The notes under the pieces: model-generated
The model's database searches: none
The model's input: the letters and a program-made list of their open reading frames with translations, nothing else
Told to the model about the DNA's origin: nothing
Part shown: piece after piece, positions 3,934 through 57,930 of the stretch
Numbering within the stretch: the first letter of the stretch is position 1
Layout of the letters: each line of letters begins with the position of its first letter
Position numbers and translations under genes: made by a program
Assembly (NCBI GenBank): GCA_964016885.1
Contig: OZ024746.1
Coordinates: forward strand, 98,394,001 to 98,458,000
Direction: 5' to 3'
DNA: 64,000 nt
Source of the DNA: Eledone cirrhosa
Taxonomy: Eukaryota

Positions 3934-4390
3934 AAGAGATATATTCGATATGTCTCATATGAAATAATACAGCCAATTTTCCACGCAATACTTTTAGTTA
4001 GCACCCCGAACGCATAATTGGGAATATAATCACTTATTTCCTAATGTTTGTTGAGTGAGTTGGAATTTGGCCGGAATATCGCTAAAAAGCTTTCTCCGAT
4101 ATTGTATTTATATATATATATAATTATTTGGATTTTAGTCTTCAAATTTATTATTATTACTATACATACATATATATATAGATAGATATAGATATAGATA
4201 TAGATATATAACATATACATATAATTACATATATATATATATATATAAATATGGTGTGTGGAGCGATTGTGATACGTGATATATATATATATATATATAT
4301 ATCACGATAAATTACCGGGGCCATAGACCCTCGCCATTCCCTGTAAATAATGTGCTCAAAGGAGAAGAAATCCTGAGCTCTTTAAAATAC

Positions 4391-4714
4391 AATATTTTGA
4401 AAAGGTAACACACTAGAGAGATAGTGCGCCATCAATAAAACAGGGAAAAACCACCAGTGTATGGAATCTATAACCTATGAAAGGTAGACTATAGGCACGA
4501 TAAATAAAAATATAAATTAAAGCGTAAATAAATACCTCTATAACTATATAACACACGTACGTGTGTTATATAGTTATAGAGGTATTTATTTACGCTTTAA
4601 TTATCGTGTCTATAGTCTGCCTTTCATAGGTTATAGATTCCATAAACTGGTGGTTTTTCCCTGTTTTATTGATAGCGCACTGTATATCTCTCTCTAGTGT
4701 GTTACCTTTTCAAC

Positions 4715-4719
<5 letters not shown>
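4391..4719. repeat. Spacerless imperfect palindrome, arms about 160 bp
   Basis: Centre ACACACGT|ACGTGTGT at 4558/4559; arms match with about 8 substitutions and 2 indels; followed by (TA)n. Confidence 0.9.
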
Positions 4720-4774
<55 letters not shown>

Positions 4775-14500: not shown

Positions 14501-14606
14501 TGCAGAGGGAGAGGCGATGGAAGAGACATTCCAACTCATGAGGGTAGCCAACTCCCTTAATATTTAGTTTTAATTTAACTAAATCCTGTCTTATTCTATA
14601 AATATC

Positions 14607-14713
14607 TGAGATTCTACAGGACTAGAACTGTTTCATTCTTTAGAAATCATCAGGAATCTCTGATTCCTGATGATTTCTAAAGAATGAAACAGTTCTAATC
14701 CTGTAGAATCTCA
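14607..14713. ncRNA. Palindromic pair of type I hammerheads (one on each strand)
   Basis: 52-bp arms with 1 mismatch, 3-nt spacer; GATTC-CTGATGA(14667)-TTTCTAAAGAAT-GAAA(14686)-CAG..CTG-TA-GAATC. Confidence 0.8.
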
Positions 14714-14715
14714 TC

Positions 14716-14757
<42 letters not shown>

Positions 14758-45341: not shown

Positions 45342-45520
45342 ACTTTGTTAATCTTGTTAGAAATTGATGTGTTAAATTCTGATCTGCAGTTGATGTGTGG
45401 TGTGAGTTTGTTAATGATAATCGTTTCCTTAATTCTAAGATTTCCTAATCTTCGAGCACTAGCTTCAATCGTAACTGTTATGATTTTGTTGTTGTTTCTG
45501 CATTTGTCTATGTGTTGTTC
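45342..45520 (-). pseudogene. PLE GIY-YIG C-terminal fragment
   Basis: HIDKCRNNNKIITVTIEASARRLGNLRIKETIIINKLTPHINCRSEFN aligns with HLVKCKNTDKNITVRIETKERNLGNLRIKEALIIDRTHPPINNRLELN of the 54.5-kb ORF. Confidence 0.8.
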
Positions 45521-45747
45521 AATGAAATAACCTATTCATGAAATTAACTGGCAACTGACATAGCATTCCACAGACACATATACCCTTAACGTAATTCTTA
45601 GTGAGATTCAGCAAGATACAGTGTGTCACAAAGTTGGTCCTTTGAATTACAAGTACTTGAATTACAGATATATATATTTGACTTCTCGCACACGAGGTGA
45701 AATATTCGTTCGTGTAGCTTTTAGTTTTAGCTGTTTGTCACATTTAA

Positions 45748-52344: not shown

Positions 52345-52675
52345 TAGCCAGAGTAGACTCTTACAACATCCCTACGGTCTGAGAACACAGGTCCAGCAAT
52401 CAGAGTCAACCAACAACACCTGGAAGAAGTCGATCACTTCAACATTCTGGGCAGCATCCTGGATGACAATGGCGATGTAGAGCTCGACATCAACTGTCCG
52501 ATCGGCAAAGGAGCCGCAGTTTTTCAGCGGTTTTTCCAGCAGTTTTCAAGTCTGGTCGTCTTCATGCAGGACCAAGCTGTGCCTATACAGGAGCATCGTG
52601 CTGCCGACTGCGCTTTACGCGAGCAAAACCTGGAAGAGCACGGCAAAGATAGAGAGACGGCTGAACACATTCCTC
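52345..52675 (+). pseudogene. RTE-clade RT C-terminal fragment
   Basis: LEEVDHFNILGSILDDNG..DINCPIGK..TKLCLYRSIVLPTALYASKTW. Confidence 0.75.
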
Positions 52676-53103
52676 ATCGATAATTTGTTCATTTTCATTT
52701 AATTGTTTATTGGTCTTATCTTATAAAGAACATGTAACAAAAAAAATGTAACGGTTAAAATTTTTAAAAAAATTCTATATCTGGAGATGTTAGCAACTTT
52801 ATGGACATGAACAACAACTAGTGTGAAGGAGAGAAACAGAGTTGAACTAATATAAACTTCTTTTTTTATTCCTTGGCCAACAACCTGTCTCGTGTATGTG
52901 TGTCTATACACCCATGTGCTTGCTCTGTCTGTGTATTTATATATATGCGTATATATATATATATGGGCCAAGCGTGTGTAGGAATGTGAATTTATCCTGT
53001 TTTTTTCCTCTCTTTTTGTCTTATATATATTTATTATTATTTTGTTTTGTTTTTAAGTTCATTTTCGTTTTATTTCCAGGCTGAACAAGGAATGGTGTCT
53101 TGT

Positions 53104-53165
<62 letters not shown>

Positions 53166-53697
53166 CGTTAGAATATGTGTAATAAGGCCAAGACAATGCA
53201 GATATGGACATAGAAAAAAGAATGCAATAGTGAAAGATATTGATGAGAATTCGTCTTTCACCTTGAATTTATTTAAATGTCCTTAATTTTCGAGATAATA
53301 TCTCTTCTTCGGAGGGAAGTAAAAGTCTCAGACCAGCGTCTAAATTTCCAATGAAGCCATGCTGACCGGAAATAGTATAGAGTTCTAACTTTAATATCAA
53401 AGAATTAAAATTAGGTGGGTAAAGAGTAGTCTCCCTTTAAGAGGGGTTTGTTTATGTTTTTGTTGTGTTTTTTTAAATTTTATATGCGTGCCTGTATATG
53501 TGTGTGGGAGAAAGCATGAAGGTGTAGGTATGTGGGTGTGTGTGTGTGAGTGTGGGAAGATAGGTCTAATCGTAAAAGTGGGGGGTATGTGTTATCTGGT
53601 GTTAGAACTGGTTTTGTGTGTGTATGTGTGAGAGAGAATAAGTGGAGGTGTGCGCGTGCGTGTGTGTGGGGTGTGTAAAGTGGGGCTAGAGGCCCTA

Positions 53698-54534
53698 TCA
53701 GGTTATAAATTGGGTGTTGAGCTCTAGTCTATTATTGATTGGTGGATGTGTTCTATCTATAATGAGTGCTTCCTTGATTCTAAGATTGCCGAGGTTTCTT
53801 TCCTTAGTTTCTATCCTAACTGTTATGTTTTTATCAGTGTTTTTGCATTTAACTAGGTGTTTCTTAAATGAGGAAGCGTTAGTATTGAGGTGTTCTTTTA
53901 TTCTTATGTGGAGTGGTCTGGTGGTGCTACCTACGTAGAAGTTGTTGCATTTGTCACACTCTAGTCTGTAAACTACGTAAGCCTGGTGGCATAGGTCTGT
54001 GTCGTTGATGGGGCAGTTGGCTAGTCTGCAGCAGTTGTCATGTCTGGTGGAGTGTCTCTTAGCTAGCCGTCCACGCAAAGAAGGACCCGAATGGGCCAGT
54101 TGAATATCCAGACCTTCTCGTCTGATGGCTCTGCGGATGGCTGTTGTTGTTTCTTCACTGAAGTGTGGGAGCTTCAGGAAGCAAGTGTTAGTGCCTCGGG
54201 TGTGGTGTCCTCTGTTCTTTCTGGCACGGTTTGTGGTGGATGTCGTGTATCCGTTCAGTTTGAGTACTTCCAGGAAATGTGTGGTGTGTGTGTCTCGGTC
54301 TCTGGCGTCGGTGCATTTGTTCTTGATACGTGCCAGTTCGTTCTTTATGTATCCGAACTTGGCACCGAGTGGGAGGGCCGATCTGAAATGTACGAACAGG
54401 TCCCTGCTGGCGGCTTTTTTATAGAAGCAGGTGTGGATGTTGCCTTCCTCTGTTACCCTGAGTTGGAAGTCCAGCAGGGATAGGGATCCGCGGTCATCGG
54501 GGTGTTCTATGCTGAACTTTATACTGGCGTCCAT
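53698..54534 (-). CDS. Mirror copy of the PLE GIY-YIG ORF
   Basis: Identical translation in the ORF track. Confidence 0.85.
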   Translation of the reverse strand: MDASIKFSIEHPDDRGSLSLLDFQLRVTEEGNIHTCFYKKAASRDLFVHFRSALPLGAKFGYIKNELARIKNKCTDARDRDTHTTHFLEVLKLNGYTTSTTNRARKNRGHHTRGTNTCFLKLPHFSEETTTAIRRAIRREGLDIQLAHSGPSLRGRLAKRHSTRHDNCCRLANCPINDTDLCHQAYVVYRLECDKCNNFYVGSTTRPLHIRIKEHLNTNASSFKKHLVKCKNTDKNITVRIETKERNLGNLRIKEALIIDRTHPPINNRLELNTQFIT

Positions 54535-54570
54535 GCTGGAGAATGTTGTGTATACACAACATTCTCCAGC

Positions 54571-55407
54571 ATGGACGCCAGTATAAAGTTCAGCATAGAA
54601 CACCCCGATGACCGCGGATCCCTATCCCTGCTGGACTTCCAACTCAGGGTAACAGAGGAAGGCAACATCCACACCTGCTTCTATAAAAAAGCCGCCAGCA
54701 GGGACCTGTTCGTACATTTCAGATCGGCCCTCCCACTCGGTGCCAAGTTCGGATACATAAAGAACGAACTGGCACGTATCAAGAACAAATGCACCGACGC
54801 CAGAGACCGAGACACACACACCACACATTTCCTGGAAGTACTCAAACTGAACGGATACACGACATCCACCACAAACCGTGCCAGAAAGAACAGAGGACAC
54901 CACACCCGAGGCACTAACACTTGCTTCCTGAAGCTCCCACACTTCAGTGAAGAAACAACAACAGCCATCCGCAGAGCCATCAGACGAGAAGGTCTGGATA
55001 TTCAACTGGCCCATTCGGGTCCTTCTTTGCGTGGACGGCTAGCTAAGAGACACTCCACCAGACATGACAACTGCTGCAGACTAGCCAACTGCCCCATCAA
55101 CGACACAGACCTATGCCACCAGGCTTACGTAGTTTACAGACTAGAGTGTGACAAATGCAACAACTTCTACGTAGGTAGCACCACCAGACCACTCCACATA
55201 AGAATAAAAGAACACCTCAATACTAACGCTTCCTCATTTAAGAAACACCTAGTTAAATGCAAAAACACTGATAAAAACATAACAGTTAGGATAGAAACTA
55301 AGGAAAGAAACCTCGGCAATCTTAGAATCAAGGAAGCACTCATTATAGATAGAACACATCCACCAATCAATAATAGACTAGAGCTCAACACCCAATTTAT
55401 AACCTGA
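54571..55407 (+). CDS. PLE RT thumb/linker + GIY-YIG endonuclease (5'-truncated, open)
   Basis: IKFSIE..LSLLDFQL..YKK..FVHFRSA; VVYRLECDKCNNFYVGST..RIKEH..KEALII..PPIN; in-frame ATG at 54571. Confidence 0.85.
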   Translation: MDASIKFSIEHPDDRGSLSLLDFQLRVTEEGNIHTCFYKKAASRDLFVHFRSALPLGAKFGYIKNELARIKNKCTDARDRDTHTTHFLEVLKLNGYTTSTTNRARKNRGHHTRGTNTCFLKLPHFSEETTTAIRRAIRREGLDIQLAHSGPSLRGRLAKRHSTRHDNCCRLANCPINDTDLCHQAYVVYRLECDKCNNFYVGSTTRPLHIRIKEHLNTNASSFKKHLVKCKNTDKNITVRIETKERNLGNLRIKEALIIDRTHPPINNRLELNTQFIT

Positions 55408-55789
55408 TAGGGCCTCTAGCCCCACTTTACACACCCCACACACACGCACGCGCACACCTCCACTTATTCTCTCTCACACATACACACACAAAACCAGTTC
55501 TAACACCAGATAACACCTACCCCCCACTTTTACGATTAGACCTATCTTCCCACACTCACACACACACACCCACATACCTACACCTTCATGCTTTCTCCCA
55601 CACACATATACAGGCACGCATATAAAATTTAAAAAAACACAACAAAAACATAAACAAACCCCTCTTAAAGGGAGACTACTCTTTACCCACCTAATTTTAA
55701 TTCTTTGATATTAAAGTTAGAACTCTATACTATTTCCGGTCAGCATGGCTTCATTGGAAATTTAGACGCTGGTCTGAGACTTTTACTTC

Positions 55790-55824
55790 CCTCCGAAGAA
55801 GAGATATTATCTCGAAAATTAAGG
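55790..55824 (+). ncRNA. Minimal pLTR hammerhead, U4C core (mirror at 53281-53315, minus)
   Basis: CCT-CCGAAGA-A-GAGAT att ATCTC-GAAAATTA-AGG. Confidence 0.55.
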
Positions 55825-55985
55825 ACATTTAAATAAATTCAAGGTGAAAGACGAATTCTCATCAATATCTTTCACTATTGCATTCTTTTTTCTATGTCCA
55901 TATCTGCATTGTCTTGGCCTTATTACACATATTCTAACGTTTATACCTCATTACACAATGTTTCAAGTGAACTATAACCTCCTCC

Positions 55986-57930
<1,945 letters not shown>

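What the first reader, a model, noticed from the sequence alone, without database searches (positions are those of the whole stretch)
53163..55942. 2.78-kb spacerless palindrome encoding one intact GIY-YIG ORF on both strands
Seen: two 1390-bp PLE 3' halves joined head to head at GTATAC with no spacer and only one mismatch noticed. The ORF is open, with GIY-YIG catalytic motif residues and an in-frame ATG 18 bp from the centre (278 aa, lacking the RT catalytic core). HHR-like motifs lie near both outer ends, the right arm has about 45 extra tail bases, and TA tracts flank both sides. Inference: a very young, large product of hairpin-primed second-strand synthesis, with the same asymmetry as the small fold-backs. 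It could form a cruciform, a 1.4-kb dsRNA (ADAR/siRNA substrate) or a stand-alone endonuclease.
Basis: partly seen in the sequence, partly recalled or inferred. Interest (0 to 1): 0.85.

Follow-up and report, generated by a model that had tools for sequence, protein, structure and literature searches.

The report
Gapless mirror insertion of Penelope-like retrotransposon
This 2.8-kb perfect palindrome is the no-gap extreme of the usual back-to-back insertions of a young Penelope-like jumping gene, and the matched ends of its sister copies suggest that both ends of the cut DNA likely copied the same RNA from two start points, which offers a test of how these elements insert.

Summary
Observation confirmed: two 1,390-bp arms, no spacer, one mismatch, open 278-aa GIY-YIG frame on both strands, 43-nt tail on the right, (TA)n on both sides. 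It is one copy of a young Penelope-like family (over 1,000 exact k-mer hits; full-length RT+GIY-YIG copies exist). Head-to-head insertion is the family norm: 42 of 62 loci in an unselected sample; 74 of 75 two-armed loci carry one tailed and one short end. In 36 of 69 the short-ended arm is the longer, and six tail arms do not overlap the other arm, which a single snap-back cannot give. Best reading: both cut ends were primed on one RNA at the two known start sites and the new strands were joined at a native TATA. Snap-back may still have made this second arm. Other gapless palindromes exist (5 of 69 with no offset; the same centre recurs independently). The ORF is an intact fragment of a young copy, not a stand-alone nuclease. 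The layout is published; the one-of-each end rule was not found in my searches. The scan noted the same pattern earlier in this genome's retrozymes. No spanning reads were obtained.

The parts
53107..53162 (.). (TA)n target tract, left; ends an older repeat (52673-53124)
53163..54552 (-). Left arm: 3' 1.39 kb of the element (unit 1699 to about 3081), ending at the short end, no tail
53279..53316 (-). Mirror copy of the minimal hammerhead-like motif
   Evidence: mirror of 55789-55826
53698..54534 (-). 278-aa frame (RT C-terminus, Cys linker, GIY-YIG), identical protein to the + copy
54551..54554 (.). Centre: native self-complementary TATA shared by both arms (unit 1699-1702)
   Evidence: same centre at L102
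54553..55942 (+). Right arm: same 1.39 kb
54571..55407 (+). 278-aa frame from an internal Met of the 850-aa element frame; GIY-YIG domain about 55126-55362
55742..55942 (+). pLTR part; 55742 (unit 2883, in TCAG context, TATA-like word about 30 nt upstream) is a hot spot of 5' ends in the family, inferred RNA start
   Evidence: promoter function is inference
55789..55826 (+). Minimal hammerhead-like motif (core CCGAAGA, extra A, 5-6 bp helix II, GAAA, palindromic helix III); predicted cut before 55822
   Evidence: layout compared with PMC4209133; no Rfam hit
55943..55985 (+). 43-nt tail, on this arm only; in tandem copies it holds the first ATG of the long frame
55986..56110 (.). (TA)n/(TATG)n target tract, right

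Best explanation
This is a single recent insertion of a Penelope-like retrotransposon into a (TA)n tract, made of two copies of the element's 3' half joined head to head, and it likely arose when both ends of the cut DNA primed reverse transcription on the same RNA, one at the tail end and one about 44 nt further in, and the two new strands were joined at a native TATA. Shown: family membership, (TA)n target, one tailed and one short end, shared template of the two arms, TATA centre, recurrence of gapless junctions. Known from another PLE in vitro: both strands are cut and extended, and two start sites bound the tail. Inferred: (1) the two start sites are used together, one per cut end; (2) both cDNAs stopped at the same RNA position (a pause site or broken RNA end); (3) their 3' ends paired through the self-complementary TATA and host microhomology repair filled in both strands. 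A hybrid in which both ends are primed but the second arm's interior is copied from the first cDNA is not excluded. The palindrome and the double ORF are by-products.
For: Family: unit about 3,125 nt, 850-aa RT+GIY-YIG frame in L054; 696, 1,158 and 1,450 exact hits for three k-mers. Unselected sample (first 100 hits = 62 loci): 42 two-armed with one tailed and one short end, 3 with a second arm that ends internally, 17 single-armed or tandem only (counted by hand). Over all fetched loci 74 of 75 two-armed loci with both ends visible have one of each end (exception L055). Of 69 simple two-armed loci: tailed arm longer 24, short-ended arm longer 36, within 12 nt 9. Tail arms that do not overlap the other arm: L033, L071, L093, L110, L112, L118. 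Arms of one locus share a template: across 47 arm pairs only 2 differences fall on sites polymorphic in other loci, and many pairs share locus-private variants. Matching stop points exceed chance: 9 within 12 nt against 1.9 in permutations; 3 of 18 among loci with both arms about 1 kb or more against 0.33 (p about 0.002). Gapless centres sit on native self-complementary words (TATA twice, ACGT, ATTTAAAT) or at inferred RNA ends (unit 2884 twice; 2963, the predicted hammerhead cut, once). L148: the tail arm is five 80-nt repeats that each stop at the short start site. Templated filler at several junctions (L035, L060, L064, L066). PMC11167929: both strands cleaved and extended, two start sites bound the tail, predicted dimer.
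Against: L102 has the same TATA centre but a 69-nt second arm that ends inside the ORF; L073 and L116 are similar. These read most simply as snap-backs, so a gapless centre at this very site may not need two cDNAs. Shared private variants fit a shared RNA and copying of one cDNA equally well. The hold-out set of older copies had 0 of 12 matched junctions. PMC11167929 saw no difference in start site between the two strands in bulk. The 12-nt threshold was chosen after seeing the data, junction positions are BLAST end points, and the first sample was biased to long copies like the query. No read-level proof of the centre was obtained.
Confidence: 0.62

Rival explanations
1. Pure snap-back: one cDNA primed at the tail stopped at TATA, folded back on itself, was copied back for 1.39 kb and joined the other target end through the TATA that follows the short end.
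For: Fits this locus on its own: arms nested and near identical. The short end is followed by native TATA that matches the target. Short internal-ending mirror arms at L102, L073, L116. Snap-back junctions are reported for R2 insertions (PMC11371274, passages). Self-priming was proposed for PLE junction palindromes (PMC3846280, discussion). L043's 5-nt spacer can form a micro-hairpin.
Against: Cannot give the 36 of 69 loci whose short-ended arm is the longer, nor the six non-overlapping tail arms. A TATA fold-back has no room for a loop and offers one base pair, against four between two strands (inference).
Confidence: 0.27
2. The gapless palindrome formed after insertion, by deletion of a spacer or by replication template switching and arm-to-arm conversion in an originally spaced inverted copy.
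For: Inverted repeats are known fragile sites (PMC7999016, PMC10766183: search listings only).
Against: The copy is among the youngest (0 differences in 1,123 compared sites from five other loci). The outer ends follow the insertion rule. Spaced loci have arms just as alike. Palindrome repair is expected to add central asymmetry, not remove it (recalled).
Confidence: 0.05
3. Fold-back chimera or misassembly.
For: No read or contig spanning the centre was seen (one search listed none among the pieces shown). Both flanks are repeats next to TA tracts.
Against: A fold-back read would mirror the flank and give identical ends; here flanks differ and only one end has the tail. Arms differ at one site. 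The same centre occurs at an independent, 1.7% diverged locus of another subfamily. A contig from another organism (X6) shows an opposite-strand, head-to-head joint in a related element.
Confidence: 0.04
4. The locus is kept or used as a stand-alone GIY-YIG nuclease gene or dsRNA source.
For: Open frame with conserved Cys, His, Arg, Glu and Asn residues and a good Kozak context.
Against: The Met is an ordinary internal codon; the frame is open in 58 of 79 arms. The inferred promoters point outward. Any transcript that reaches the ATG through the centre first reads the antisense arm and would fold into a 1.39-kb hairpin (inference). The copy is too young to show selection.
Confidence: 0.02

Closest known systems
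Endonuclease-bearing Penelope-like elements with inverted pLTR and tail (PMC8557442 passages; PMC3846280 passages and discussion)
   Same: RT plus C-terminal GIY-YIG with two Cys between the motifs; partial tandems; inverted 5'-truncated copy at the 5' end; tail at one end only; palindromes at the inverted junction; microsatellite targets.
   Different: Published junction palindromes are 18 and 38 bp; here the whole 2.78 kb is gapless. The tail is 43-44 nt, not 30-40. The one-of-each end rule and the free choice of the longer arm were not found in the passages read.
Poseidon element of Anolis, PAc (PMC11167929, main text read)
   Same: Two adjacent RT start sites bound the tail; both strands are cut and extended; AT-rich targets; tail overlaps the ORF start; hammerhead in the pLTR.
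   Different: This family has a C-x4-C-x7-C linker, which Penelope/Poseidon lack per PMC8557442. The paper does not pair start sites per molecule or explain inverted copies.
L1 twin priming (Ostertag and Kazazian 2001, seen only as cited in PMC10760644, passage)
   Same: Second target end primes on the RNA; two cDNAs are joined by microhomology.
   Different: L1 gives an inversion without duplicating the 3' end; here both primers start 44 nt apart at the 3' end, so the arms duplicate each other.
R2 cDNA snap-back junctions (PMC11371274, passages)
   Same: cDNA 3' end primes antisense synthesis before the 5' junction forms; resembles L102, L073, L116.
   Different: No fixed second end and no tail rule.

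Membership tests
EN+ Penelope-like element | Single ORF with RT and C-terminal GIY-YIG | tested here: met
   L054 850-aa frame: RVT_1 E 4.9e-16, GIY-YIG E 3.2e-5; the window holds its last 278 aa
EN+ Penelope-like element | CCHH motif with two Cys between GIY and YIG; catalytic R, H, E, N | tested here: met
   C765, C768, H781, H787, H798, R778, E827, N839 are identical in 36 of 36 aligned homologs (36 of 113 hits aligned)
EN+ Penelope-like element | Partial tandems forming pLTRs, inverted 5'-truncated copy, one-sided tail | tested here: met
EN+ Penelope-like element | Hammerhead motif in the pLTR | tested here: inconclusive
   Minimal layout with extra base before helix II and palindromic helix III, but C at core position 4, 3-4 bp helix I, fold z -0.23, no Rfam hit; one locus has both arms starting at the predicted cut
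EN+ Penelope-like element | RT groups with PLE/telomerase RTs in a tree with named references | not tested
   No named PLE reference was returned; no PDB relative
Penelope/Poseidon clade | No Cys linker between RT and EN | tested here: not met
   C741, C746, C754 invariant in 36 of 36 homologs (criterion from PMC8557442)
Neptune or Nematis clade | Cys linker (CX2-5CxxC in Neptune, reduced in Nematis) plus CCHH | tested here: inconclusive
   Linker present but spaced C-x4-C-x7-C; no tree against named clades
Stand-alone GIY-YIG nuclease gene | Own promoter, expression, selection on the truncated frame | not testable with these tools
   No RNA holder listed; frame open in 58 of 79 arms

The most novel reading that the evidence does not exclude
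Penelope-like elements integrate by a double first strand: an RT-endonuclease dimer primes both ends of the cut on one RNA at two offset start sites, the trailing enzyme displaces the first cDNA, and host microhomology repair joins the two cDNA ends. This one step would explain the inverted copy, the one-sided tail and kilobase gapless palindromes, which form when both enzymes stop at the same RNA position. An active family would then seed perfect palindromes of 1-2 kb arms at a few percent of its long insertions.
Probability: 0.45. Interest if true: 0.7.

Novelty: new member of a known kind. Interest (0 to 1): 0.45.

Why it matters
How Penelope-like elements make their inverted copies and one-sided tail is described as undefined in PMC8557442, and the steps after priming as unvalidated in PMC11167929. 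This young, protein-coding family gives a strict genomic rule (one start site per cut end, 74 of 75) that the existing in vitro system can test directly. It is also a natural source of kilobase gapless palindromes, which are expected to be fragile. The locus itself is most likely a neutral by-product.

Tried and rejected
Read support for the centre: contigs of four runs laid on 54480-55985 cover the element but no listed piece spans the centre, and the list was cut; this question stays open. No RNA holder was listed, which says nothing on expression. Empty-site search failed because both flanks are repeats. The idea that L102 is a retrocopy of this palindrome was rejected: it differs at 19 of 1,107 sites, mostly alleles shared with other copies. 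The idea of two RNAs from different source loci was not supported (2 polymorphic-site differences in 47 arm pairs). My first label 'Poseidon-type' was dropped after the linker test. Decay of gapless centres with age: 3 of 19 against 0 of 12, Fisher p 0.26, not significant. Rfam found no hammerhead; the 251-nt pLTR fold is not significant (z -1.22). No solved structure matched. Literature searches with Penelope plus twin priming/head-to-head, snap-back/second-strand, fold-back/palindrome and target-primed/dimer terms returned no paper with this model; subscription papers such as Arkhipova 2006 are not in the library, and no supplements were read. Earlier scan notes by sequence and by nearby place: none.

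Full report
Observation. The palindrome is real in the sequence: arms 53163-54552 and 54553-55942, no spacer, one mismatch. Both strands carry the same 278-aa frame from the ATG 18 nt off the centre, with a GIY-YIG domain above Pfam's cut-off and no RT core. The right arm has a 43-nt tail, and TA tracts lie on both sides. The hammerhead is a plausible minimal motif by the features in PMC4209133 (parts 1-2 of 4 read) but has C at core position 4 and no Rfam support.

Family. The window lies on contig C6 of a 3-Gb genome. Exact k-mers from the arm occur 696 (3' end), 1,158 (ORF) and 1,450 (tail) times. A natural full-length copy, L054, gives a unit of about 3,125 nt with an 850-aa RT+GIY-YIG frame. 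A Cys linker invariant in 36 of 36 aligned homologs excludes Penelope/Poseidon by the criterion of PMC8557442; the clade is not settled. The window copy is very young: no difference from five other loci over 1,123 compared sites, with simple-repeat positions 2555-2810 masked; the single arm mismatch lies in that masked part and is a rare allele on the left arm.

Architecture. I fetched 109 stretches around family hits, 108 distinct (L035 repeats L092), plus three odd loci. The unselected sample, the 62 loci under the first 100 hits, holds 42 two-armed head-to-head insertions with one tailed and one short end, 3 with a mirror arm that ends internally (L073, L102, L116) and 17 single-armed or tandem-only loci (hand count). 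Nearly all sit in (TA)n. Over all samples 74 of 75 two-armed loci with both ends visible have one end of each kind; L055 has two short ends. Left out of this count: L031, L073, L102, L116 (internal end) and L138 (interrupted). Larger double-ORF insertions exist: L054 and L060 carry open frames of over 800 aa on both strands. So a GIY-YIG frame on both strands is ordinary here; only the missing spacer is uncommon. Loci with both arms reaching unit 1839 were 4 among the roughly 90 loci listed.

Offsets. For 69 simple two-armed loci other than the window (multi-part L050, L074, L092, L121, L148 left out), the tailed arm is longer in 24, the short-ended arm in 36, and the two stop within 12 nt in 9, five of them exactly. 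Permutation expects 1.9 and 0.3. Among 18 loci with both arms about 1 kb or more, 3 match (L043, L086, L111) against 0.33 expected (p about 0.002). The threshold was set after seeing the data, and the 12 older hold-out loci gave no match. The window's own centre recurs once, at L102, an older copy of another subfamily, so the site is a hot spot. 5' ends cluster generally: 23 pairs within 2 nt among 102 ends against 9.6 after jitter.

Mechanism. A single cDNA that starts at the tail and snaps back can only give a short-ended arm nested in the tailed arm. More than half of the loci break this, and six have tail arms of about 10-45 nt that do not overlap the other arm. Both target ends must therefore be primed, at two sites about 44 nt apart. 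This matches the in vitro behaviour of the Anolis element, which cuts and extends both strands and starts at two sites that bound the tail (PMC11167929, main text read). Arms of one locus share a template: only 2 differences in 47 arm pairs fall on polymorphic sites. L148 shows five 80-nt tail repeats that each stop at the short start site, as if the tail-primed enzyme was blocked there (one locus, later slippage not excluded). Gapless centres lie on self-complementary words or at inferred RNA ends. I infer that two cDNAs stopped at one RNA position and paired through TATA; templated filler at other junctions resembles polymerase-theta joining (recalled signature). Against this, L102, L073 and L116 look like snap-backs of the kind reported for R2 (PMC11371274, passages), and variant sharing cannot separate the two routes. 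The hybrid, both ends primed with the second arm copied from the first cDNA, stays open.

Artefact. Different flanks, a one-sided tail, one arm mismatch, an independent locus with the same centre, and a head-to-head joint in a contig of another organism argue against a fold-back chimera. Direct read support for the centre was not obtained, and both flanks are repeats.

Function. Nothing supports use of the truncated frame: it is open in 58 of 79 arms and starts at an internal Met. Cruciform and dsRNA effects are plausible and untested.

What is known. The inverted 5'-truncated copy, the one-sided tail and junction palindromes are described (PMC8557442 passages; PMC3846280 passages and discussion), with endonuclease resolution or self-priming as proposed causes. 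Twin priming is proposed for L1 (PMC10760644, passage). My searches found no paper that states the one-of-each end rule for PLEs; subscription papers and supplements were not seen. Earlier notes of this scan reached a similar reading for retrozyme arrays elsewhere in this genome; I had recorded my reading before seeing them and did not check their loci.

Verdict. A real, young, gapless member of a known insertion class; modest as a locus, useful as part of a family that makes an open mechanistic question testable. Interest 0.45.

Noticed in passing
window 56110-56720: A separate, very young element of about 600 bp between TA tracts, with many 99% identical copies genome-wide (40 scored of 2,316 candidates); identity not worked out.
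   Followed up: partly
L148:3985-4375 (G000:C1:195533500-195543400): Tail arm made of five 80-nt repeats of the tail plus the first 38 nt of the next unit; shows that the RNA runs on past the tail and that copying stops at the short start site.
   Followed up: partly
L089 junction (G000:C1:266115100-266116800): Both arms begin exactly at the predicted hammerhead cut (unit 2963) and are joined blunt; a single hint that the C4 variant cleaves.
   Followed up: partly
unit positions 828-831, 1495-1497, 1980-1981, 2883-2886: Recurrent 5' end hot spots across independent loci; pause sites, RNA ends or microhomology sites.
   Followed up: partly
L061 (G000:C1:68316600-68326599): The inverted arm matches the upstream partial unit (1 difference) rather than the full downstream unit (9 differences), pointing to a multi-unit RNA with unlike units.
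   Followed up: partly
window 14597-14723: Small fold-back of another family with a CTGATGA...GAAA hammerhead-like core in each arm and a TA tract on one side.
   Followed up: no
window 4387-4723: Gapless fold-back of about 340 bp, 85% arm identity, centred on a self-complementary word, next to a TA tract; unrelated to this family by BLAST.
   Followed up: no
window 45425-45525: Old 74% identical fragment of the GIY-YIG region on the minus strand.
   Followed up: no
window 52357-52683: Frame resembling the C-terminal part of a LINE-type RT (recalled resemblance, not searched).
   Followed up: no
L135 and L136: Two loci 1.2 Mb apart on C1 with the same upstream flank and 5' end; probably a segmental duplicate.
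   Followed up: no
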